A stretch of 64,000 nucleotides of DNA from a virus: the IMG/VR virus record IMGVR_UViG_3300035145_002886, one strand, 5' to 3'. The stretch's first letter is position 1. Each line of letters opens with the position of its first letter. Position numbers and translations under genes: made by a program. The notes under the pieces were generated by a model, which made no database searches, was not told the DNA's origin, and was given only the letters and a program-made list of their open reading frames with translations. Below, piece after piece: positions 5,775-52,005 of the stretch.

Positions 5775-8306
5775 TTACCAAACGTAATCCATTTTTTTAA
5801 TCTTACCGATTCTGTCTTTAATAGATTTAGCGTAGTTCTTTACTTCTCTTGTGTAGTATTTACTGACATATCCATCCTCTTCTTCACGTTTTGCTTGATT
5901 TGTATAGTCTACATATCTGTTAAAATCATCTAGAAGATTTTGCATTACATTTGAAGCATCTCTTAGTTTAACCTCACGGCCTTTAGGATCGTGTCCAATG
6001 ATAACATCACCGTATCTTCCTTTTTTACCTGCTGATAAACCATCTTTAATTTGTAAAGAGACAATATCGATTGCATCTAAGACTTCTTTATCGATAGGCA
6101 TCTTAGCTGCTCTATCTGCTAGAATCATGTGGTATCTGTCAAGATTATCTTTCTTAAAGTCTTTATCATTCTTAAACGCAACTGCTCCTTTTCTTGCTGA
6201 AGTTCTTGCATTGCGAATTGGTATTGTACCGTATCTTGCTTCTAAAATGTCAAGATCAAGAACGTATGCTCTATCTGCAAGTTCAGCAACTTTAGTTATA
6301 CTTGAAATACCAGTTCCCCATGAGTCTCTAGCATTAGATTTACCGAACCCAACTGAATCCTCTTTTCTAGACGTTTTTAGTGTTTTCGTTCTTCCGTTAT
6401 ATCCTCTGCCAGCATATGCCTGTGCAAGCCATTCATTTTTTCCATTAGTTGCACCTAATAGAGTATTTGCTGGAATTGTTCCTCCACCAAACTTTCCTGC
6501 CCATTCGCTCGCATATGGGTTCTCCTTTTCATTGGTTGTAAAGTATAGGTAAACTGCGTTTTTTCTCTTTTCTTTTCTTGCCTCAGCTGGATCCATTTCG
6601 ATAATATCTACATCTTGAATCTTATCAAGTTGGATTTTAGCCATATTGTAGAAAGCTTTAGCAAAGTCTTTTTCCATAGAACCCGCACCTGCTAAGATTG
6701 ATTGTAATTTCATTGAGCTAAATGCTTCAGAAATCATCTCTTCAGATTCGTTGGTTGATTCTTTAATACCTAAGAATTCAGCAGCTGCTGATTTAAGCTC
6801 ATCATATGTATATCTTCCTGTTAGAGCGTCGTCTAGAATAGTTCCAGTATTTTTACCACCACTTGCATAAAGAGATACGTAGTCAAAACCTAACCAGTCT
6901 CCACCTCCAAATTCATGTCTAGGATTTAAACCTAGGTCAAGTGAAAGCGTTTTAGAAAGAGACTGTCTTCTGTCTAAAAACTGATCGTTATAACCAAGCT
7001 TACCCGCGCTTGCATATTTGTTCTCATTTAGTGATTCTACAAAGCCATTAAATGACTCGTATACGAATGCGTTTTTCATTTCTTTATTATTATTTTTTGA
7101 TTCAATTTGTCTTTTATTAACTTTATAGCCCCTGTTTCCTGTTCTTCCAGCATCGGCTTCCATGTGAACTTGCCAAATGGTTGATAAATTTCTAGTAAAA
7201 TTATCTAAATAACCTCTCCATGATGTGTTTGTAGTAACATGTTTAAATTGTTTATGAGCGGCTTTCATCCAGTCACTATGTATCTTATTAGTAGTTCCGT
7301 GGTCGTTATCATCCTTCGCTTTAAAATACGAATCACCTCCTTTTACAAACTTTTTTAGTAATTTATCTAAATCTTCATCAAAGTCATCAAGATTGTATTT
7401 GTCGGGCTTAATATTACCGTAAAGTGTTTTTGTTGTTTTAATTAAACTTGTCAAGAATTCTCTATCATCCTTATCACCAACAGTCTCCCATTTGAATTTT
7501 TCTTCTAATTTAGATTCAAATGTTCCTGTAGATGCTAAGCTGTAGAGATGATCGGCAATCTTTTTAGCTTTTGCTCCTTTATGTCCATAGTTTGCAACAG
7601 TTTCTAGTGCTTCTTCTGGCATCATCTCTGTTAATTCCCACGGGTCAAATTCATCCATTAAATCACTTAAGATTTCTTTAGCCTCTTTCTCGAATCTGTC
7701 GGCCTCGTGAAGTTGATCATCTTCTTCTTCATCTTCGATACCATCGCCGTCCTCATCATCAATTATACTAGCATCAAGACCAGTTCCTCTTGGGGCACCA
7801 ATTGTATCTGCTAGAGCTCCTGTAAGTCCTGGAGCCAGCTTTTTAGCTAGGTTTGGAGCTTTTTCTTCTAACTCTTCTTCTACAAACTCTTCAGCATTTT
7901 CTTTATCTTCAGAGTCAACGTCTTTAACTTTAAAAGTTTCTCCGTCTACTGTAAATTCTTCTTCTCCATCTGCGATAGCTTTTGCTCTTGCGGCACCAAA
8001 TGCATTACCTTCTTCAATAACTGCAATTTGTGATAGCGCTCTTTTTCCAAATGTAGAAAGTGAAATACCGTCTTCTGAAACGTTAAAGTATTTTGTGTTT
8101 CTCCTGATCCACTTTGAAGTATCTTTAGAATATTCTTTTAAGATTGCATCGAATTCTTCCTGTGTAATTTTTCCATCGGCAATCGCTTCAAGCATTTTAT
8201 TTCTAACTTTAGCGCTTTTTCCAACTTGTACTGCAGGATGATTTTCGGTGTATCTTCTCTTAAGAGTTATTTTACTTCCCTCATTTAAAAAATCTTGAAA
8301 ATTCAT
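5775..8306 (-). CDS. Large modular putative head-internal protein
   Basis: 843 aa. Starts MNFQDFLNE, has acidic linkers and xxE junctions, and shares a 43-aa module with 14008-16218. Confidence 0.6.
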   Translation of the reverse strand: MNFQDFLNEGSKITLKRRYTENHPAVQVGKSAKVRNKMLEAIADGKITQEEFDAILKEYSKDTSKWIRRNTKYFNVSEDGISLSTFGKRALSQIAVIEEGNAFGAARAKAIADGEEEFTVDGETFKVKDVDSEDKENAEEFVEEELEEKAPNLAKKLAPGLTGALADTIGAPRGTGLDASIIDDEDGDGIEDEEEDDQLHEADRFEKEAKEILSDLMDEFDPWELTEMMPEEALETVANYGHKGAKAKKIADHLYSLASTGTFESKLEEKFKWETVGDKDDREFLTSLIKTTKTLYGNIKPDKYNLDDFDEDLDKLLKKFVKGGDSYFKAKDDNDHGTTNKIHSDWMKAAHKQFKHVTTNTSWRGYLDNFTRNLSTIWQVHMEADAGRTGNRGYKVNKRQIESKNNNKEMKNAFVYESFNGFVESLNENKYASAGKLGYNDQFLDRRQSLSKTLSLDLGLNPRHEFGGGDWLGFDYVSLYASGGKNTGTILDDALTGRYTYDELKSAAAEFLGIKESTNESEEMISEAFSSMKLQSILAGAGSMEKDFAKAFYNMAKIQLDKIQDVDIIEMDPAEARKEKRKNAVYLYFTTNEKENPYASEWAGKFGGGTIPANTLLGATNGKNEWLAQAYAGRGYNGRTKTLKTSRKEDSVGFGKSNARDSWGTGISSITKVAELADRAYVLDLDILEARYGTIPIRNARTSARKGAVAFKNDKDFKKDNLDRYHMILADRAAKMPIDKEVLDAIDIVSLQIKDGLSAGKKGRYGDVIIGHDPKGREVKLRDASNVMQNLLDDFNRYVDYTNQAKREEEDGYVSKYYTREVKNYAKSIKDRIGKIKKMDYVW

Positions 8307-43782: not shown

Positions 43783-44054
43783 TATTTAACGTTTGTGTTA
43801 TCTTTTTTAACCGTAAAGTTTTTCCACTGCTGTAACTTCTTTACTGAGTTAACAATCTCGTTTAAATAATCATTGATAAAAGAGATAAAATCACTCATTG
43901 TTTGATTTCTTAAAATATGCCCTGAAAGGTTTCTCTGCATCAGGCTCTCAGAATAGTCGAATCCTTGGTTTTTCAAGTTATTCTTTCTAGTCTTTGCTCC
44001 TGAATAGAGATTCTTAAGTTTATATTTTAATAAGTCTTTGTATAAAGATTCCAT
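43782..44054 (-). CDS. Hypothetical protein in the baseplate operon
   Basis: 90-aa ORF with coupled start/stop junctions on both sides. Confidence 0.55.
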   Translation of the reverse strand: MESLYKDLLKYKLKNLYSGAKTRKNNLKNQGFDYSESLMQRNLSGHILRNQTMSDFISFINDYLNEIVNSVKKLQQWKNFTVKKDNTNVK

Positions 44055-45880
44055 TATAGTGCTTTTCTTGTTCCTGCCTGTAATCTAGTGTAAACTGTTC
44101 TAGGTACTGGCGTTTCGTCAAATGTTACAGAAAGACTTGCCTCCTCATTAATTTTAGGAGTGTCTTCAATTAGGTCACCGTCACGGTCTAACCAACCGCC
44201 TCTAAATACTGCAACCTCTTCTTTTTCCATAATGATGTCTCCCCATTGGTCTAGTCCCGCAATATCATAAGGAATTGAATCATTTGGACCAATATTAACC
44301 TTCTTTACATCGTCGATTTTCTTAAAGAATACGTACTTTTGTTTTCCGTTTCCAATATCTTCAAGAGTTACTGGTTCCTGAGCCGCAATTGTTGTTGTAA
44401 CTGACTCATAATAACCAAGTCTTCTTGCCGTCTCTTCGGTTTCACTTCTAAACTGAACGTTTACTGCATCTACTCCTTCAACCTCTTCCAAGATGTAGAT
44501 AATATCACTCTTAGGTAATTTGTCTCTTCTTGTAACGTTTAACATATAGTTCGACACTGCATTTCTAATGTCGTTGAAGATGTCCTCCTTATTAAAGCCC
44601 TCAAAGTATCTGACTGAAATATCGACGGCATATTTACGGATCTTTGGTCTTACAAATTGAACCTCACTAGTTACCATCATTTGACCACTCTCCTGTAAAA
44701 CCTCATACATTTTATCATATTCTAGTTGGTCAAAGAACATTTCCTGTTGAGGAATTGAGAAGTAGTCTTGGTTCTTTGATAACTTTTTATTAATGTCTGG
44801 AATTGCGAAGATATAAATAACGTTATCATCATCGATATATCCATCTTCGCTTGTATTGTATGCATCAATATATGAGAAGATTCCATATCTTGATAGGAAA
44901 TATTCATAATTATCTGGAGTTGCAAGAACAAATGACTTACTTGCAAATGGAGCAATCATCTTAGTAAATTCAGTAGATTCAGGTTCTGATCCCATTTTTG
45001 GAGCAGAAGTAACTTCAACTTGCAATAACTCATTTAAGTCATAGAAGTTTCCAGCGCTATCTTGACCTTCATCAACCCACTTAATTTTTAAGTCTTCTGC
45101 GTCTTCAATATTCCCTTTTGCTCCTTCATGTATAATATACTCAACTTCAATTGTTGATCCAAGAGGAGGAATCGATCCAAAATTATTTGTTCCGAAGTAG
45201 ATGTCAAGTCCACCGCTAATACCGGTTTTTACAATGAATCCTTTGTCTCCGGCATTCATCTCATAGATTGAATTAAATTTAGACCACTGCTCACCATTAA
45301 CTGAAACTTTAACCAAATTGTGATCAGTTTTTCCAGTCTGTATATTATATGTCTGGAAACTTTCACCATCCCCTGTAAGAGTTTGCGTCTCTACTTTACC
45401 CTGTACAATAACTGCTTTAATCTTCTCTACTTGAGATTTTGGAATTCTAAATAAGTCTCTTGAAGTTCTCACCATATATGAAAGACCGTTTGCCTCAAGT
45501 TTAAATTCAGCATTAGCAGGAATAGAAATACCGTCTCCTGCAATTTTGATAAAATCACCAGACTCTGTTTTTAATCTAATTGATATTTCTCCAGTTGCGG
45601 CAAATCCTCTAGTTGGATCGTGTCCTGTAAGTCTTGCCAAACCATAAATAGATTCAGGCTGCTGAGCAGTATAAATGTTTTGTTCTACTGTCGAGTCTTC
45701 AACATAGAACAGAATAAGTTCTCCAAGTTCAGAAAGTACTCTTAAGATCTGAGCAAATGGAGAAGCATTAGTAAACAGGGTGTTTGACCTTTCGTAAAGC
45801 CTAGAAATATAGGTTCGAGTGTCCTCGAATATCTGTTGAGCAGTTGCTCTTGTTTTTGTTAAGAATTTTAATTCAGCCAT
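44054..45880 (-). CDS. Baseplate wedge protein (T4 gp6 / baseplate-J-like)
   Basis: FAQILRVL...AQQPESIYGLARLTGHDPTRGFAATG, LATPDNYEYFL; follows gp25. Confidence 0.75.
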   Translation of the reverse strand: MAELKFLTKTRATAQQIFEDTRTYISRLYERSNTLFTNASPFAQILRVLSELGELILFYVEDSTVEQNIYTAQQPESIYGLARLTGHDPTRGFAATGEISIRLKTESGDFIKIAGDGISIPANAEFKLEANGLSYMVRTSRDLFRIPKSQVEKIKAVIVQGKVETQTLTGDGESFQTYNIQTGKTDHNLVKVSVNGEQWSKFNSIYEMNAGDKGFIVKTGISGGLDIYFGTNNFGSIPPLGSTIEVEYIIHEGAKGNIEDAEDLKIKWVDEGQDSAGNFYDLNELLQVEVTSAPKMGSEPESTEFTKMIAPFASKSFVLATPDNYEYFLSRYGIFSYIDAYNTSEDGYIDDDNVIYIFAIPDINKKLSKNQDYFSIPQQEMFFDQLEYDKMYEVLQESGQMMVTSEVQFVRPKIRKYAVDISVRYFEGFNKEDIFNDIRNAVSNYMLNVTRRDKLPKSDIIYILEEVEGVDAVNVQFRSETEETARRLGYYESVTTTIAAQEPVTLEDIGNGKQKYVFFKKIDDVKKVNIGPNDSIPYDIAGLDQWGDIIMEKEEVAVFRGGWLDRDGDLIEDTPKINEEASLSVTFDETPVPRTVYTRLQAGTRKAL

Positions 45881-45898
45881 CTATCTGGTTTCAATTTT

Positions 45899-46252
45899 TT
45901 AAGCAGCTACTGAGACCACAAATGTGTTATCAATAGTAATATCTATATATGCCTCGTCTCTAACTTCACCTCTAACGAAAGCAATGTCAACCTCTACTCC
46001 GTATTTTCCAGCAAGCGGACAATACTTTGAGATTTGTCTTGTTATCTCACTCTTTATTGTAAATTCATTGGCATTTAATGAGTATAAAAGATCGTTAAGA
46101 CTACAACCAAACTCAACATCGCCCAATACTTCTCCCTTATTGGTAAAAAGTATCGTCTCGATCTGTGTAATCAATTTCTGAACTTCATCATTTGTTTGAA
46201 GTTCAGTTGATCGATAATTAGGATCTCCTACGGTCTTTATATACAATTCCAT
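45899..46252 (-). CDS. Baseplate wedge subunit (gp25/GPW-like)
   Basis: IETILFTNKGEVLGDVEFGCSLNDLLY signature. Confidence 0.85.
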   Translation of the reverse strand: MELYIKTVGDPNYRSTELQTNDEVQKLITQIETILFTNKGEVLGDVEFGCSLNDLLYSLNANEFTIKSEITRQISKYCPLAGKYGVEVDIAFVRGEVRDEAYIDITIDNTFVVSVAA

Positions 46253-46271
46253 ATTCTATTTATTATAATTA
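46250..46271 (-). promoter_or_regulatory. Conserved stop-to-start spacer TAATTATAATAAATAGA(A/G)TATG, copy 1
   Basis: 21/22 identical to 53163-53184; contains ATAAATA. Confidence 0.55.
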
Positions 46272-47111
46272 GCTGTGGAACATCCAGTCAACTCCTTCGT
46301 CTCCTTTAATTTCTTCAATAATTTGATCAAGTTCCTCGTCTCCCATTGATTTAATTGCATCATAATCGAAGTCAACATTTCCCGGAAGGGCAAACTTAAA
46401 TATTCCAAGTTTAGCACCAAGAGACTGTTTAATCTTAGCACTTACATATCTAAAGAAAATCTCATCATTGTAAAGCGCACAATCGCTAATTGTTTCATAA
46501 ACTTGAAGAATCACATCACCCTTTGGAGTGTCTCCCATAAACTTTAACTCTCCAGTTAATTGTGAATATGAGAAAGAAATTGGATTCTCTAGGATTTGTC
46601 TAGCTAAATCGACAAGAGATTGATTTACCACGTAGTATTGTAGCTCTTCTGCAAATTCTGCTGGGCCAGACCCTTCATAAGCATCTCTAAACAACATCTT
46701 ATCGATTGCGAAGTCATTTCCACCTTCAAATCGAAGATCCATTCCTCCACCGCCGCCTTGCCAACCGCTCGTTAGGTCCCAAAGACCAAAAACTGAGTAA
46801 ACTTCACCAGATCCGTCCTGTCTTGCGCCTGGTAAATGTAATGCTCTGTGGTTCTTAAAGTAATCACTACTGAAAACAGTTTTTGGAATATGATAAAAGT
46901 TCTCAGCTACCGAATATTCATACTTTTTATAGAACCATTTTTTAGCTCTTTTAATAATGTTTAGGATTTCTCGTTGAGGAAGGTTTACCGGAACCATACA
47001 TGCACCGGTGATTTCATCTCCAATCTCTTCAAGAAATGCGTTCAAGCAATTATCACCAAAATCTCTTGGTGTAGTTAGTCCTGAATCGCTTCCACTTCTA
47101 ATTTCGCTCAT
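46269..47111 (-). CDS. Neck protein (T4 gp13-like)
   Basis: VPVNLPQREI...AKKWFY; C-terminal YVSAKIKQSLGAKLGIFKFALPGNVDFDYDAIKSMGDEEL matches the gp13 pattern. Confidence 0.7.
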   Translation of the reverse strand: MSEIRSGSDSGLTTPRDFGDNCLNAFLEEIGDEITGACMVPVNLPQREILNIIKRAKKWFYKKYEYSVAENFYHIPKTVFSSDYFKNHRALHLPGARQDGSGEVYSVFGLWDLTSGWQGGGGGMDLRFEGGNDFAIDKMLFRDAYEGSGPAEFAEELQYYVVNQSLVDLARQILENPISFSYSQLTGELKFMGDTPKGDVILQVYETISDCALYNDEIFFRYVSAKIKQSLGAKLGIFKFALPGNVDFDYDAIKSMGDEELDQIIEEIKGDEGVDWMFHS

Positions 47112-47112
47112 T

Positions 47113-48426
47113 TTATGAGTTTATTTTTTTACTTACGACAACTTCAGCGTCGTCAAATCTTGTTTCATCACCTACAAATCCCTCTCTAAAAATACCACCA
47201 ATCATCCTTCCTTTAAAAACTCCATCTCTTCCAAATACATAACAGTTTTTAGCAGTGACGCTACCATTAACGTAAGAAGACTTGATCTTTGATTCGGAAA
47301 CTTCAGTTCCCTGATAAAGATTACAGTATTCTAGCGTTGAGTTCTTGACCTTACAATTATAAAAGTTCGAATTGAATACATTTCCATTAATTTCACAGTC
47401 AACAAGGTCAAATCCATCTAGTTCATAACAAACTGGGAATTTACCGTCTTTCACCTGAATTGCTCCTAAGTCTGAATCATAGTTAATTATACCATCAACA
47501 AGGCCTCCAACCGATAGAGCAGAAACAATCTTATGTTTAATTCTTTCCCATTGTAATCTTATCACGGCTTCTGATTCTTGTAAATCAACCATTAGGTCAA
47601 TTTTCGGAAAATGCTTCTTTAAGTTTTTATGGTCCTTCAATATTTCTCTGTATGGAAGGTTTCTATTAAGAATCTTTTTTAACTCAACCTTATTAGTTTC
47701 TGTAAATTCCGTATGAAAACAAGACTTCCACATCTGGATAATAAATCTATCCAATAGGTAAAATATATTGTCCTTCTTTTCTTCGTAGTCTTTTCCTCCA
47801 ATATACCTAAACTCAAGATAATTTTTAACCTTCTTGTCAAAATTTATACCGTAATATTTTGTATTAGGGAAATTGAAATTATTTACAGTTAAAAAACTAT
47901 CATTGAAATAGAAAGACTCATGTTTAGGCACAACCCACTTAATAGACTTTGCATAGATTGAATCTTTTCGGTTTGGAAATAATTTATAAACTTGATCCTC
48001 ATTAAACTCAAGGATAAACTTAAGAACGTTCATCTTTGAGATGGTGTTATTGTCTTCAAGATAATTCTTATCGAATGAAAGATTTAAGTGAATTGAAGAC
48101 CTGTCAGTAGTATAGCCATTTTCTTTTATCCATCCTAGCATTTTTAAGATTACTATTCTAGCGTTTTTATATGGCATTGCACCGGTAACTAACTCAATCA
48201 AGCCTTTACCTCCCGACATATCAGGTTCCATCTTAAACACCTTATCGTCAGGTTGAAAATCAGAATGAGCTTTATCTTCGAGCTGTATTTTACGCCCAAG
48301 AAGTTCAGAAACTTTTTGTTGAGTTTCCTCTAGGCTGTAGTTAGAGTAAAACTCAAACTCAATCCCAACAAGAGAAGCGTTGAGTACTGAGTTTGAGTCT
48401 GAATGTCTATTTAGTGTTTGCATCAA
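47113..48426 (-). CDS. Putative amidoligase (COOH-NH2 ligase fold) with C-terminal beta-helix-like repeats
   Basis: VGIEFEF, EPDMS, IELVT, SSIHLNLS, KYYGINF, LEFRYIGG; tail with spaced NC/NS pentapeptide-like units. Confidence 0.7.
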   Translation of the reverse strand: MMQTLNRHSDSNSVLNASLVGIEFEFYSNYSLEETQQKVSELLGRKIQLEDKAHSDFQPDDKVFKMEPDMSGGKGLIELVTGAMPYKNARIVILKMLGWIKENGYTTDRSSIHLNLSFDKNYLEDNNTISKMNVLKFILEFNEDQVYKLFPNRKDSIYAKSIKWVVPKHESFYFNDSFLTVNNFNFPNTKYYGINFDKKVKNYLEFRYIGGKDYEEKKDNIFYLLDRFIIQMWKSCFHTEFTETNKVELKKILNRNLPYREILKDHKNLKKHFPKIDLMVDLQESEAVIRLQWERIKHKIVSALSVGGLVDGIINYDSDLGAIQVKDGKFPVCYELDGFDLVDCEINGNVFNSNFYNCKVKNSTLEYCNLYQGTEVSESKIKSSYVNGSVTAKNCYVFGRDGVFKGRMIGGIFREGFVGDETRFDDAEVVVSKKINS

Positions 48427-48481: not shown

Positions 48482-49756
48482 TTATTCTGGAAGCTTAAGA
48501 AAGATCTTTTGAGAATCTTTATCAATTCTACTAATCTGAACTGTTATCTTATCTCCTGCATTATATAAATCCATCACTGAAGGTTCTAATTCACTAACAT
48601 GTAAAAGACCAACCAATCCGGTATCGACAGTTATAAACAGTCCGTAATCTTTTTTAGTTTTTACGGTAGCCTCAACAGTACATGGGCATTTAAACTTTTT
48701 ATCAACGTCTCTCCATGGATTATCAATTGTTTCTGCTTTTTGACTTAGCGTTATTTTAGAATTGCTAATTATATCTTTTACCCAGAATTCAATTGCATCA
48801 CCTGGCTTAATTTCTCTAGACTTAAACTTAGAAAGCGTATCTGCGTCTAGATCGTTGGTGTGAATCATTCCAGTAAGACATGTGTCAAACTCAACAAATA
48901 CACCATATTTAGCGGTTCCCGTTACACTACCAGTTAGCTTATCTTCGATCTTCGCTTTTAGCTCTTCAATTTTACCAGGTATAAGAGCCTTTAAGTATTT
49001 TCTATGAGAAACTACAATTGTACCTCTTTCTGCTGAGAAAGACACGGGAACTACATATAATTCTTCTCCCAGAATAGAATTAAAGTCATGTAATTTATTA
49101 ATTCCAGCTAGAGAACCTGGCATGAAACAATCAACACCTTGAATATTGACGATATAACCGCCGTTCTCGATTAATCTATCAACCTTTCCAACCCATGCAG
49201 TGTCTCCATCTTCTACTCCAGCCTGTAGGTCTCTAAATACTTTTTGTTTCATTCCACCTGAGATAGAACCTAAAACATGGTCCTCTTTGGCTTGAATAAG
49301 AACAGAAACATCATCACCTGGGCGATATTCTTCGATAATATATCGAGGTTCTTTAGAAGTTTTAACATAGACCATTTCTCTCCAGTTAACATCAACTGTA
49401 ATCCATTCCGAACTAATAGCAAATACTTTACCGTCAATAATTTCGCCTTCAGTTACTGAAGATCTTATATTCGACATGCTATTATGTCCTTCCATTAGGT
49501 CATATAACTCTTGCGCATATGGCTCTCTAGAATAGACTCTGTCTCCTTCTTTAGTCTTAATGTGTGGGTTTGGTTTTCGATAGACTGAGATACAAGTTGC
49601 TTCATAAGCAGCCCAGTCAAATTCACCATTGGCGTCTAGCCAGTTTTCGATGCGGTCAGCGCCGCCGTCATTTTCAGAATCTGGAGTTTTAACTTCCAGA
49701 GTTTCTACGGGAGTAAGTTCTTTCTTCTTAATCCTCGCTCTTTTTTTGTCTGTCAT
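48482..49756 (-). CDS. rpsA: Ribosomal protein bS1 homolog (four S1 domains)
   Basis: GEIIDGKV.., GYIVNIQGVDCFMPGSL..TIVVSHRKYL, YGVFVEF..GMIHTNDL..ITLSQK..NPW, YGLFITVDTGLVGLLHVSEL..RIDKDSQKIFL; N-terminal FDWAAYE. Confidence 0.85.
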   Translation of the reverse strand: MTDKKRARIKKKELTPVETLEVKTPDSENDGGADRIENWLDANGEFDWAAYEATCISVYRKPNPHIKTKEGDRVYSREPYAQELYDLMEGHNSMSNIRSSVTEGEIIDGKVFAISSEWITVDVNWREMVYVKTSKEPRYIIEEYRPGDDVSVLIQAKEDHVLGSISGGMKQKVFRDLQAGVEDGDTAWVGKVDRLIENGGYIVNIQGVDCFMPGSLAGINKLHDFNSILGEELYVVPVSFSAERGTIVVSHRKYLKALIPGKIEELKAKIEDKLTGSVTGTAKYGVFVEFDTCLTGMIHTNDLDADTLSKFKSREIKPGDAIEFWVKDIISNSKITLSQKAETIDNPWRDVDKKFKCPCTVEATVKTKKDYGLFITVDTGLVGLLHVSELEPSVMDLYNAGDKITVQISRIDKDSQKIFLKLPE

Positions 49757-49784
49757 TTATTTTTAGATTAAAAGTGTAACAATG

Positions 49785-49792
49785 TATATATC
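49785..49792 (-). promoter_or_regulatory. GATATATA motif upstream of the bS1 gene
   Basis: Intergenic copy, 28 nt before the ATG. Confidence 0.55.
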
Positions 49793-50444: not shown

Positions 50445-51316
50445 TATTCTTCTAGTTTAATATCTTCGATTTTAACATCGAATGGTTCTTTATCAAATGG
50501 AGTAGTCTCAACTCTAATATCATTTCCAACCTCTTGTATTGAATATGAATGATATTCTTTTCCAACTTGAGGGTCCATCGAATCCTTTAACTCCTGAATT
50601 ATCTCATCCTTCTCTATTTCTATAAAAGTTGATGTACCATCTTCACCAATCTCAGTTTTCCAATTACCTATCTCAGGGGTCTCTATTGTTTCAATTGTTG
50701 TTTCTCCCTTCTTATTTAAAACACCAAAGGCCATAATAGGAAGATCCTCTAAATATTTTTTAATTAAGTTAGTTAAGATTTGCGTTTGTAAAACTACCAC
50801 ATAGTCATATAACCCTGATGTATTATTATAATTGTAGTTGAATCTTAAATTATTAAATCCAATGTTTAACACATCTTTAATATCTATTGAAATTATCTTA
50901 ATTTCTTTATTATTGCCGTCAATTATTTCAAAATCTCTTTCAACAGAAGCATATTCTTTCCAAAGATCTTCATCACCAAGTAATTGATGGATTTTATTAT
51001 TCGTTGAAAAAGAGCCGCTTGGTGAGAAGTCTGATAATATATCTTTAAACTCACTGCTTATCTGGTATTCAATTGGTTCTTTAACAAGAGCTTTAAATTT
51101 TAAGGGACTAAGATTTCCATTTGTAAGGTTTGCTATTATATTAGCGTTTATGGTTGCTTTAAAATACTTTTCAAAGTCTTTAGTAAATCTATCAATCTCT
51201 CTTAATTCAGCTCCCCCAACATTATAATCTATTTGATATGTCTGCGGGTCACGCTGTGCTGTTGCCGTAAAACTGAAACTAGAACCCCATTTATTTAATA
51301 GTTCATCGCGCGTCAT
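50444..51316 (-). CDS. Hypothetical protein
   Basis: 290-aa ORF with coupled junctions. Confidence 0.55.
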   Translation of the reverse strand: MTRDELLNKWGSSFSFTATAQRDPQTYQIDYNVGGAELREIDRFTKDFEKYFKATINANIIANLTNGNLSPLKFKALVKEPIEYQISSEFKDILSDFSPSGSFSTNNKIHQLLGDEDLWKEYASVERDFEIIDGNNKEIKIISIDIKDVLNIGFNNLRFNYNYNNTSGLYDYVVVLQTQILTNLIKKYLEDLPIMAFGVLNKKGETTIETIETPEIGNWKTEIGEDGTSTFIEIEKDEIIQELKDSMDPQVGKEYHSYSIQEVGNDIRVETTPFDKEPFDVKIEDIKLEE

Positions 51317-52005
51317 TATTTACCAGTTTGTTGATAGTTAACATGTTCTCCTTTTAGTTGAGGTACTAAAGAAGCTGTAGGCGGAAGTGGAGGTCCACTA
51401 GGCCCGACTCCGGTTGGATGGGTGTGTGCTAAATAATCGTCTAATAACTTATTTAGCCATTCTTCAAGCGACTTACCACGAACTGCAGGTTCACTCTCAT
51501 CAGTACCATCATTGGTTGCTATAAAAATATCGCCTGAATTAATAAAGATCTGTCCTTCTGGACTAAAGCGAATCATTGGAGCTTCAGTGTTTGATTCTCC
51601 AGTTGTAATTACAAGGCCGTCCTCGACTGAGTAATAGACTCTTAAATTTCTTTGTTCATCATAAACAAGAGAAATAACGTTCTGTGGCTCTTCACTATTT
51701 TCAAGAACCTCACTCTTTAGGGTATCATTCTGATTCACCTGGAACCAATATTCTGGGTGGTATATGTTACCATTATCAAAACGAACTGATACAATATCAC
51801 CAACCCTAGGAACTGCATGAGCACCTGGAAGATTACGATTCATAGGACTAGCCCATGGAATAGCCTCCTCTGGTAAAAGGTCAAACTTACCAAACACCTT
51901 GATTCTACATCTACCTGAATAAAGCGGATCTTCATTGTTTACCACTTCACCAAGCCAATGAGAATCTCGAGTGTTGTCTCTATATAGCTCGTTAGTAGTC
52001 TCCAT
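51316..52005 (-). CDS. Baseplate central spike (gp5/VgrG OB-fold, no lysozyme domain)
   Basis: WLGEVVNNEDPLYSGRCRIKVFG...IPWASP...VPRVGDIVSVRFDNGNIYHP; C-terminal HTH metal-binding motif (AHTHPTG). Confidence 0.85.
   Translation of the reverse strand: METTNELYRDNTRDSHWLGEVVNNEDPLYSGRCRIKVFGKFDLLPEEAIPWASPMNRNLPGAHAVPRVGDIVSVRFDNGNIYHPEYWFQVNQNDTLKSEVLENSEEPQNVISLVYDEQRNLRVYYSVEDGLVITTGESNTEAPMIRFSPEGQIFINSGDIFIATNDGTDESEPAVRGKSLEEWLNKLLDDYLAHTHPTGVGPSGPPLPPTASLVPQLKGEHVNYQQTGK

What the first reader, a model, noticed from the sequence alone, without database searches (positions are those of the whole stretch)
48482..49756. Phage-encoded four-domain ribosomal protein bS1 with a Bacteroidota-like N-terminus
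Seen: four tandem S1 domains with bS1-specific linkers (VVSHRKYL, LSQK...NPW) and FDWAAYE near the N-terminus, which from memory resembles the F(D/N)WxxYE segment of Bacteroidota bS1; it has its own GATATATA motif. Established: bS1 domains 1-2 dock on the 30S subunit and domains 3 onward bind A/U-rich leaders; typical Gram-negative bS1 has six domains; S1-domain genes have been noted in some huge phages. Inference: a truncated bS1 that replaces host bS1 late in infection and biases ribosomes to this phage's SD-less, A-rich start regions.
Basis: partly seen in the sequence, partly recalled or inferred. Interest (0 to 1): 0.8.

Follow-up and report, generated by a model that had tools for sequence, protein, structure and literature searches.

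The report
Phage four-domain ribosomal protein S1 copy
A large uncultured aquatic phage carries a shortened copy of bacterial ribosomal protein S1 that keeps the pieces Bacteroidia bacteria use to dock S1 on the ribosome. Phage S1 genes were already reported in 2020, so this is a well-supported member of a known kind.

Summary
ORF 48482-49756 (minus strand, 424 aa) has four OB/S1 domains collinear with bS1 domains 1-4. It also has the bS1-type linkers, an FDWAAYE motif and a GATATATA box 28 nt upstream.

The window is part of a 166.6-kb viral record (CheckV 59% complete). Its DNA polymerase and S1 are both closest to the Lak and LR7565xx huge phages.

The gene sits in the baseplate module. This position is conserved in relatives down to 40% identity and in the 462-kb phage LR756500.

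The FDW motif occurs only in class Bacteroidia among the cellular bS1 sampled. A 2026 cryo-EM paper shows that this helix of Flavobacterium johnsoniae bS1 contacts uS8, and that the bS1 N-terminus is bound to uS2 and uS8. A complex prediction with F. johnsoniae uS2 and uS8 passed (0.66, best control 0.13).

The phage's leaders lack Shine-Dalgarno motifs and are A-rich. The record also encodes bS21 and 25 tRNAs.

All four-domain phage forms make one clade, on a long branch away from cellular bS1. Their origin is unresolved.

The most likely function is a late-expressed bS1 substitute or supplement on host 30S subunits. Preference for phage mRNAs is untested.

Phage rpS1 and its link to SD-less genomes were published in 2020. 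This scan has noted the same family in at least 10 other genomes.

The parts
48482..49756 (-). Phage bS1-like gene, 424 aa plus stop codon (P0001)
   Evidence: ORF list and translation. bS1 models match collinearly. The top 21 structural matches are all bS1.
49785..49792 (-). GATATATA late-promoter-like motif, 28 nt upstream of the ATG
   Evidence: The record has 27 copies, all on the coding strand, and 18 lie 19-40 nt before a start codon. Promoter function is inferred.
49757..49784 (-). A-rich leader without a Shine-Dalgarno motif (ends in AAAAATAA before the ATG)
   Evidence: Sequence. Genome-wide, 10 of 187 upstream regions hold an SD-like 4-mer, against a background of about 10%.
49652..49756 (-). 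Residues 1-35: basic then acidic tail, variable and predicted disordered
   Evidence: pLDDT is below 50 for residues 13-34. Conservation is the lowest of any region, 0.42. It lacks the MKHIKLFEQF-type capsid-tag leader seen on other genes.
49601..49651 (-). Residues 36-52: aromatic helix W39..F46-D-W48..Y51. It is the counterpart of the F. johnsoniae bS1 helix FLANFNWHNF that contacts uS8.
   Evidence: Motif counts, PMC13000457, and predicted contacts of residues 39, 46, 48, 51-52 with uS8.
49523..49600 (-). Residues 53-78: insert specific to the phage family (consensus ..RKPNPHIKT.NGDKVYSRE). It is absent from Bacteroidia bS1.
   Evidence: The motif-to-D2 distance is 164 aa here and 139 aa in Bacteroidia. 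This is the most conserved N-terminal stretch, 0.83. It is also present in Lak phage. Residues 71-78 give the lowest-error predicted contacts with uS2 residues 29-36.
49457..49522 (-). Residues 79-100: helix before D1 (YAQELYDL..), the counterpart of the uS2-binding N-terminal helix of E. coli bS1
   Evidence: Helix at 81-96 in the model. Predicted contacts of residues 80, 81, 84, 85, 87, 88 and 91 with uS2. E. coli Phe5/Phe9 stack on uS2 Phe32 (PMC10123108).
49265..49456 (-). Domain 1 (residues 101-164), a ribosome-docking OB fold. D122 and R126 align with E. coli D39 and K43.
   Evidence: Alignment to E. coli bS1, model, and predicted contacts of residues 125-128 with uS2 residues 17-18 and 204-208.
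49007..49195 (-). Domain 2 (residues 188-250), the most conserved domain (GGY.V..G..CFMPGS)
   Evidence: conservation 0.88.
48743..48937 (-). Domain 3 (residues 274-338), a canonical RNA-binding-type S1 domain
   Evidence: Pfam S1 match at residues 268-338. Columns G285, F287, E289 and G296 are invariant.
48485..48682 (-). Domain 4 (residues 359-424), a canonical S1 domain. The protein ends here, with no D5 or D6.
   Evidence: Columns Y371, G372 and F374 are invariant.
51316..52005 (-). Context: baseplate hub protein (gp5/V OB domain), a conserved upstream neighbour
   Evidence: PF04717 and phrog_430. Synteny.
44054..48426 (-). Context: conserved downstream block. It holds a 437-aa unknown protein, a gp13-like protein, a gp25-like baseplate wedge protein and a gp6-like baseplate wedge protein.

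Best explanation
The gene encodes a phage version of ribosomal protein bS1, cut down to domains 1-4.

When it is made (inferred): late in infection, together with baseplate genes, from its own T4-late-like GATATATA promoter.

How it docks (inferred from sequence and prediction): it docks on the host 30S subunit at the normal bS1 site. The host is most likely a class Bacteroidia bacterium, probably a Flavobacteriia-type one. Docking uses three elements:
- an aromatic N-terminal helix (W39, F46, W48, Y51) matching the uS8-contacting helix of Bacteroidia bS1;
- the helix before D1, together with D1, which bind uS2;
- a conserved 25-aa insert found only in the phage family, predicted to add further uS2 contacts.

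What it does there (inferred): domains 3 and 4 keep the RNA-binding signature. They would capture the A-rich, SD-less leaders of phage mRNAs and so supply or replace bS1 when very large amounts of structural protein are needed.

What is shown: sequence homology, fold, motif conservation, synteny and leader composition.
What is inferred: ribosome binding, timing, and function in initiation.
What is speculative: any selectivity for phage over host mRNAs.
For: Homology and fold:
- bS1 models match collinearly over residues 78-420.
- E. coli bS1 D1-D3 aligns to residues 102-355, with D39 and K43 matching D122 and R126.
- The AlphaFold2 model has four OB folds, pLDDT 87.3.
- The 21 best PDB matches are all bS1. 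Ribosome-bound D1-D2 aligns at TM 0.66-0.68.

Docking motif:
- F[DN]W lies at a fixed 139 aa before the D2 motif in 24 of 30 Bacteroidia bS1. It is absent from 31 bS1 of other Bacteroidota classes and from 44 other long homologs.
- In the F. johnsoniae 30S structure this helix (FLANFNWHNF) contacts uS8, and the bS1 N-terminus binds uS2 and uS8 (PMC13000457).

Complex prediction with F. johnsoniae uS2 and uS8:
- Score 0.66, best of 3 controls 0.13.
- That mark was reached by 58 of 80 solved complexes and 2 of 110 mismatched pairs. These counts hold only roughly here, because my own alignment and three chains were used.
- The runs agree in at least 86% of contacts, and the partner's pLDDT is at least 76.
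- The aromatic helix touches uS8. The insert, the helix before D1 and D1 touch uS2.
- E. coli bS1-uS2 complexes are solved, so the uS2 part of this pass may reflect likeness to known structures.

Sufficiency of four domains:
- E. coli rpsA lacking domains 5-6 is viable, and 30S initiation-complex formation is only slightly affected (PMC3858243).

Genome context:
- Leaders are G-poor and A-rich, with a peak at about -11 to -14. Only 10 of 187 have an SD-like motif.
- The same record encodes bS21 with a KYIQ (Tyr54-like) C-terminus, and 25 tRNAs. bS21 and bS1 are linked physically and functionally on the 30S.
- The gene's place in the baseplate module is conserved, and a positioned promoter-like motif precedes it.
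- The docking regions and D2 are highly conserved across 120 relatives.
Against: - There is no experimental evidence of ribosome association or of expression timing.
- All curated bS1 cut-offs are missed by a wide margin (162.8 against 524 bits; 141 against 577 for TIGR00717).
- The family sits on a long branch outside all sampled cellular bS1. Its OB domains are no closer to Bacteroidia bS1 than to other bS1, so it has diverged a great deal.
- The complex prediction is a model's own confidence and may draw on solved E. coli S1-S2 structures.
- The host is inferred, not known.
- RNA-library contigs covering the gene cannot exclude contaminating DNA.
Confidence: 0.6

Rival explanations
1. It is an RNA-binding protein that works off the ribosome. 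It could be an mRNA chaperone or protector, a cofactor of a phage nuclease, polymerase or recombinase, or a transcription-translation coupling factor. Such a protein would reuse the S1 scaffold, much as host S1 is used by T4 RegB, Q-beta replicase and lambda Beta.
For: S1 domains are generic RNA binders, and host S1 has known jobs off the ribosome in phage biology (PMC13157829 discussion). Al-Shayeb 2020 left open a role 'on or off the ribosome'. The family is very divergent from cellular bS1.
Against: The parts that do not bind RNA (the N-terminal helices, D1 and D2) are the ones that dock bS1 on the 30S, and they are among the most conserved. The Bacteroidia-specific uS8-contact motif is retained. 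The predicted uS2/uS8 complex passes its controls.
Confidence: 0.15
2. It is a competitive blocker. The truncated protein occupies the bS1 site on uS2/uS8 and shuts down host translation rather than supporting initiation.
For: It lacks domains 5-6. The conserved phage-specific insert is predicted to add uS2 contacts, which could raise its affinity above that of host bS1.
Against: Domains 3 and 4 keep the conserved aromatic and glycine signature of RNA-binding S1 domains. A four-domain E. coli bS1 still works. The phage's own SD-less mRNAs should depend on bS1-type mRNA capture. A blocker would be expected early in infection, not inside a late structural operon.
Confidence: 0.12
3. It is a virion or baseplate-associated protein, or injected cargo, as its conserved place between baseplate genes might suggest.
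For: Its position between the hub gene and the gp25/gp6-like genes is conserved down to 40% identity and in LR756500. Chen et al. 2022 raised the idea that phage bS21 may be encapsidated.
Against: It has no MKHIKLFEQF-type capsid-targeting-like leader, which many other proteins of this phage carry. Its fold and motifs are those of a ribosome-docking bS1. It has no PHROG structural family match.
Confidence: 0.04

Closest known systems
Ribosomal protein bS1 (RpsA) of class Bacteroidia, e.g. Flavobacterium johnsoniae bS1
   Same: Both have collinear D1-D4 with bS1-type linkers. Both have an aromatic N-terminal helix with the F(D/N)W motif, which contacts uS8 in the F. johnsoniae 30S structure, followed by a helix before D1 and by D1, which bind uS2. 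Both serve a translation system that lacks SD pairing and uses A-rich leaders.
   Different: The phage protein has four domains, not six. It has a 35-aa disordered tail and a 25-aa conserved insert between the two N-terminal helices. It scores far below the curated bS1 cut-offs. It lies on a long separate branch. It is encoded in a phage baseplate operon.
rpS1-like proteins of huge phages (Al-Shayeb et al. 2020: LR756500, LR756504, LR756501/03, LR745206) and Lak megaphages
   Same: They are homologs at 30-43% identity and fall in the same clade (100/100 support), with the same four-domain plan. The position between the baseplate hub and the 437-aa protein is shared with LR756500. The genomes lack SD motifs. 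Three of the five phage records checked (four LR records and Lak-C1) also encode bS21.
   Different: This one comes from a smaller genome (an estimated 280 kb, derived here from 166.6 kb at 59% completeness, not a tool output). It belongs to an abundant aquatic lineage whose relatives are 57-96% identical. The Lak copy has only three OB domains, and LR756500 lacks the FDW motif.
E. coli bS1 lacking domains 5-6 (rpsA delta-56; Duval et al. 2013)
   Same: Both have four domains, D1-D4. The E. coli form retains 30S binding, mRNA docking and viability.
   Different: The E. coli form is a laboratory truncation of a proteobacterial protein, with only a single short N-terminal helix and no uS8-contact helix.
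Phage-encoded bS21 of Bacteroidota phages (Chen et al. 2022)
   Same: It follows the same logic: a 30S platform protein, encoded in a structural (late) gene region of large phages predicted to infect Bacteroidota, and proposed to substitute into host ribosomes. This phage carries one as well.
   Different: It is a different ribosomal protein. That paper does not mention bS1.

Membership tests
Ribosomal protein bS1 (RpsA) | Tandem S1/OB domains collinear with bS1, including bS1-type inter-domain linkers | tested here: met
   NF004952 aligns residues 78-420 to model positions 27-371 of 580 in one stretch. E. coli D1-D3 aligns to residues 102-355. The model has four OB folds. The top 21 PDB matches are all bS1.
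Ribosomal protein bS1 (RpsA) | Score above the curated NCBIfam equivalog cut-offs | tested here: not met
   The best score is 162.8 bits against a cut-off of 524 (NF004952). TIGR00717 gives 141.4 against 577. Truncation and divergence both contribute.
Ribosomal protein bS1 (RpsA) | D1-D2 are degenerate docking domains, and later domains are canonical RNA-binding S1 domains | tested here: met
   Pfam S1 detects only D3 and D4. D3 and D4 keep invariant aromatic and glycine columns.
Ribosomal protein bS1 (RpsA) | uS2-docking elements: an N-terminal helix, plus the acidic and basic residues of the D1 loop (E. coli D39, K43) | tested here: met
   D122 and R126 align with D39 and K43. There is a helix at 81-96. 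The predicted complex scores 0.66 against a best control of 0.13, with contacts to uS2 residues 17-18, 29-45 and 204-208. This is a prediction only.
Ribosomal protein bS1 (RpsA) | Physical association with the 30S subunit | not testable with these tools
   It needs biochemistry or ribosome proteomics of infected cells.
Bacteroidia-type bS1 | N-terminal aromatic helix with F(D/N)W, which contacts uS8 in F. johnsoniae | tested here: met
   The motif occurs in 24 of 30 Bacteroidia, 0 of 31 other Bacteroidota and 0 of 44 other long homologs. The phage family consensus is GEF(D/M)WDAYE, with F46 invariant in the 18-member alignment. Structural role from PMC13000457.
Bacteroidia-type bS1 | Six S1 domains, about 590-650 aa | tested here: not met
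   The protein is 424 aa with four domains, and a stop codon follows D4.
Bacteroidia-type bS1 | Phylogenetic placement within Bacteroidia bS1 | tested here: inconclusive
   The phage forms are a separate clade on a long branch (100/100). The AU test does not reject a phage-plus-Bacteroidia clade (p 0.128). D1-D2 profile scores are similar for Bacteroidia and other Bacteroidota.
Huge-phage rpS1 (Al-Shayeb 2020) | Homology to the S1-like ORFs of LR7565xx and Lak phages, and a phage genome without SD sequences | tested here: met
   tblastn hits at 30-43% identity. Same clade. The DNA polymerase has the same closest relatives. SD-like motifs occur in 10 of 187 leaders.
Non-ribosomal S1-domain proteins (PNPase, RNase R/II, RNase E, Tex, NusA, CvfD/GSP13) | A catalytic or other signature domain beside one S1 domain, or a single-domain architecture | tested here: not met
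   Only single-domain partial matches were found, with much weaker scores (PNPase 50 bits, RNase R 28, NusA 23). The structural matches to RNase R and NusA are at E about 1e-6 or worse, behind 21 bS1 entries.

The most novel reading that the evidence does not exclude
The phage's bS1 and bS21 together form a two-protein kit that rebuilds the mRNA-exit and platform side of the Bacteroidia 30S subunit. The conserved insert (residues 53-78), found only in the phage family, would give phage bS1 extra uS2 contacts, so that it displaces the weakly bound host bS1. Its D3-D4 would prefer the A-rich tract at about -11 to -14 of phage late leaders. Together these would make a phage-specialised ribosome in late infection.
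Probability: 0.2. Interest if true: 0.8.

Novelty: new member of a known kind. Interest (0 to 1): 0.5.

Why it matters
How Bacteroidia ribosomes choose start codons without Shine-Dalgarno pairing is still open. bS1 is suspected to read the upstream adenines (PMC13000457).

A natural, compact and highly conserved phage bS1 offers a ready probe for that question. It keeps the Bacteroidia-specific docking helix and is co-encoded with bS21. Purified F. johnsoniae components exist for direct tests of binding, competition and leader preference.

The family is also large and widespread. There are 1416 homologs at E below 1e-5, on contigs of up to 255 kb, many in seawater samples. This suggests that remodelling of host ribosomes is a routine part of infection by an abundant group of large aquatic phages.

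Tried and rejected
- PHROGs gave no family for the protein.
- Megablast of 10 kb against the phage collection found nothing.
- There are no tRNA genes inside the window. The tRNAs lie elsewhere in the record.
- The genome-contig scan returned phage-like contigs binned into MAGs, not cellular bS1. Cellular bS1 had to be drawn with the genome search.
E. coli is therefore the only named proteobacterial bS1 in the tree.
- The Bacillota sample gave only 7 sequences.
- The D1-D4 tree cannot settle the origin. The phage clade attaches beside the long Bacillota branch, probably through long-branch attraction. The AU test neither supports nor rejects a Bacteroidia origin.
- Profile and phmmer scores do not rank Bacteroidia bS1 as the nearest in the OB domains.
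- The context look-up for P0160 gave only a 1.8-kb contig.
- RNA-library contigs from four runs cover parts of the gene and its neighbours at about 90-98% identity. They are contigs of relatives, may include DNA, and show neither level nor timing. I treat them as a weak hint only.
- Contamination by cellular DNA is rejected. The gene keeps the same phage neighbours in more than 10 independent contigs.
Full report
**What is there.** The ORF at 48482-49756 on the minus strand encodes 424 aa. Pfam recognises two S1 domains in the C-terminal half. NCBIfam bS1 models align in one collinear stretch. The best is NF004952, aligning residues 78-420 to model positions 27-371 of 580, at 162.8 bits. All models score far below their curated cut-offs. 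E. coli bS1 D1-D3 aligns to residues 102-355, and D4-D5 also align to phage D3-D4. The phage linkers VVSHRKYL and LSQK..NPW fall on the matching bS1 linkers.

An AlphaFold2 model built on a 130-sequence alignment has mean pLDDT 87.3. It shows these features:
- four OB barrels at 106-164, 188-250, 274-338 and 359-421;
- a helix at 81-96;
- a short helix at 48-52;
- a disordered tail covering roughly residues 1-39.

The 21 best Foldseek matches in the PDB are all ribosomal protein S1. Ribosome-bound D1-D2 matches at TM 0.66-0.68. RNase R and NusA follow at E of about 1e-6 or worse.

**Where it sits.** The window is part of a 166.6-kb IMG/VR viral record that CheckV rates 59% complete. Almost all genes lie on one strand. 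The neighbours include a gp5/V-type baseplate hub, a gp25-like wedge protein and a gp6-like wedge protein.

The order is hub, one or two small genes, S1, a 437-aa unknown protein, a gp13-like protein, gp25-like, gp6-like. This order is kept in every related contig with enough flank, down to 40% S1 identity. It is partly kept in the 462-kb huge phage LR756500.

The S1 protein does not carry the MKHIKLFEQF-type leader that many other proteins of this phage have.

GATATATA lies 28 nt before the ATG. The record holds 27 copies, all on the coding strand, and 18 of them lie 19-40 nt before a start codon. This is the behaviour of a promoter element. T4 late promoters (TATAAATA, from my own knowledge) are the obvious analogue. 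Late expression is therefore inferred, not shown.

**The phage and its likely host.** The closest phage relatives of both the S1 protein and the DNA polymerase are the huge phages of Al-Shayeb et al. 2020 (LR756500 best, then LR756502/04/01 and LR745206) and the Prevotella Lak phages. Chryseobacterium phages appear among the polymerase hits.

Several observations fit a class Bacteroidia host, probably Flavobacteriia:
- A 58%-identical homolog with the same neighbours lies on a contig binned into a marine Flavobacteriaceae MAG. This is weak evidence.
- Only 10 of 187 upstream regions hold an SD-like 4-mer, against a background of about 10%.
- G falls to 6-13% and A rises to 52-59% at about -11 to -14. 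This resembles the leader pattern described for F. johnsoniae.
- The record also carries 25 tRNA genes.
- It carries a 63-aa bS21 gene (PF01165, 43 bits, above the cut-off) with a KYIQ C-terminal motif like the Tyr54 region of Bacteroidia bS21.

None of this proves the host. The assembly came from a wetland sample, and relatives occur in many seawater runs.

**The N-terminal motif.** I drew bS1 from 30 genomes of the class of the Flavobacteriaceae MAG and from 30 genomes of other classes of its phylum.
- F[DN]W occurs in 24 of 30 class Bacteroidia proteins. In most it lies at a fixed 139 aa before the D2 motif AFLPGS.
- It occurs in none of the 31 bS1 from other Bacteroidota classes, and in none of 44 long homologs from the representative search.
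- E. coli bS1 starts directly with the uS2-binding helix.

In the phage family the consensus is (W/F)(L/Y)...GEF(D/M)WDAYE, and F46 is invariant in an 18-member alignment. The motif is also present in the Lak-C1 homolog, as SFNWTPYEDG.

The 2026 cryo-EM study of the F. johnsoniae 30S subunit built bS1 residues 4-40 as a helix-loop-helix bound to uS2 and uS8. The uS8-contacting helix is FLANFNWHNF (PMC13000457). One of my Bacteroidia samples carries exactly this string (L106).

Between this helix and D1 the phage family has a 25-aa insert, so the motif-to-D2 distance is 164 aa rather than 139 aa. The insert is the most conserved N-terminal stretch, at 0.83, comparable to D2 (0.88) and D3 (0.84).

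**Docking prediction.** Residues 36-185 were folded with F. johnsoniae uS2 and uS8, using the family alignment.
- The score is 0.66, and the best of 3 controls is 0.13.
- That mark was reached by 58 of 80 solved complexes and 2 of 110 mismatched pairs.
- The counts hold only roughly here, because my own alignment and three chains were used.
- The runs agree in at least 86% of contacts, and the partner's pLDDT is at least 76.
- W39, F46, W48 and Y51-E52 touch uS8.
- Residues 71-78 of the insert, the helix before D1 (80-91) and the D1 loop 125-128 touch uS2 residues 7-45 and 204-209.
- These uS2 regions correspond to the ones E. coli bS1 uses: Phe32, His18 and the Zn pocket at 188/203-205 (PMC10123108).

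E. coli S1-S2 structures are solved, so the uS2 part of this result may reflect likeness to known structures. The result supports binding but does not show it.

**Is a four-domain protein enough?** In E. coli, rpsA lacking domains 5 and 6 is viable. Initiation-complex formation is only slightly affected, and domains 1-3 are the minimal functional unit (PMC3858243). Phage D3 and D4 keep the conserved aromatic and glycine columns of RNA-binding S1 domains. This favours a working bS1 over a pure blocker.

**Family and origin.** The word-indexed search found 1416 homologs at E below 1e-5. The best 120 are 412-447 aa long (apart from one 333-aa fragment) and 57-96% identical, on contigs of up to 255 kb. 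The exhaustive representative search found many more four-domain forms of 340-460 aa at 25-57% identity.

In a careful IQ-TREE analysis (LG+C20), all four-domain forms make one side of a branch with 100/100 support. They include this marine clade, the metagenomic representatives, LR756500/04/01, LR745206 and Lak-C1. They are separated from all cellular bS1 by a branch of about 1.7 substitutions per site.

The point of attachment is beside the long Bacillota branch, which is suspect. An AU test does not reject a phage-plus-Bacteroidia clade (p 0.128). Profile scores of the OB domains do not single out Bacteroidia.

The OB domains are therefore silent on the origin. The N-terminal docking helix is the only Bacteroidia-specific trait. 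One acquisition from a Bacteroidia host by an ancestor of the Lak and huge-phage related lineage, followed by fast divergence, is the most economical reading. It remains an inference.

**Comparison with what is known.** Al-Shayeb et al. 2020 reported S1-domain proteins and rpS1 in huge phages. [quoted passage not shown] Mizuno et al. 2019 cite earlier virome hints of bS1. PhiMa05 carries a bS1. Chen et al. 2022 made the same argument for bS21 in phages of Bacteroidota. A 2025 description of 'moraphages', large aquatic phages predicted to infect Flavobacteriia, does not mention ribosomal proteins. I could not test whether this phage belongs to that lineage.

The kind of gene and the hypothesis are thus published. 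What this analysis adds:
- the docking helix specific to class Bacteroidia;
- the conserved insert specific to the phage family;
- the single clade of four-domain phage forms;
- the conserved place in the baseplate module;
- bS21 encoded in the same record (three of the five related huge-phage records checked also have it).

This scan has already flagged the same family in at least 10 other genomes. One earlier follow-up reached the same verdict.

**Verdict.** The finding is a new member of a known kind. The most likely mechanism is a late-expressed bS1 substitute or supplement docking on Bacteroidia 30S subunits (confidence 0.6). Selectivity for phage mRNAs is open.

Noticed in passing
L127:1474-1665 (-), = G000:C1 about 142512-142703, outside the window: A 63-aa bS21 homolog (PF01165, 43.1 bits, cut-off 27) with a KYIQ motif like the Tyr54 region of Bacteroidia bS21. 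The phage therefore encodes both bS1 and bS21. Three of the five related huge-phage records checked also have bS21.
   Followed up: partly
L127:1924-2724 (-), outside the window: A 266-aa DnaJ-like protein (J-domain motif HHPD near the N-terminus) lies two ORFs upstream of bS21 (a 91-aa ORF sits between them). DnaK/DnaJ are a hallmark of the recently described 'moraphages', predicted to infect Flavobacteriia (PMC12619734). Membership was not tested.
   Followed up: no
G000:C1:5875-11014, outside the window: A cluster of 25 tRNA genes on the coding strand, covering nearly all amino acids.
   Followed up: no
window 47113-48426 (-): A 437-aa protein with no Pfam or PHROG match always follows the S1 gene. 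It is present even in LR756500, at 45% identity. It has a GIEFEF motif near the N-terminus and repeat-like C-terminal segments. Its function is unknown, and it may be linked functionally to S1.
   Followed up: no
window 46269-47111 (-): A 280-aa protein inside the baseplate block. Its homologs carry Pfam PF26809 (Phage_T4_gp13, a neck protein).
   Followed up: no
L116 (Prevotella phage Lak-C1, MK250029.1) 5950-7059 (+): The Lak homolog keeps the SFNWTPYEDG motif and the conserved insert. It has a large insertion between D1 and D2, only three OB domains, and an acidic C-terminal tail.
   Followed up: partly
whole record, minus strand: GATATATA occurs 27 times on the coding strand and never on the other strand. 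Most copies lie 19-40 nt before a start codon, including those before S1 and before the next gene.
   Followed up: partly
P0158 (metagenomic protein, 811 aa): A long protein whose first 414 residues are collinear with the whole phage S1, including the N-terminal region. HMMER reports five matched stretches. It may be a duplicated or fused form of the phage family.
   Followed up: no
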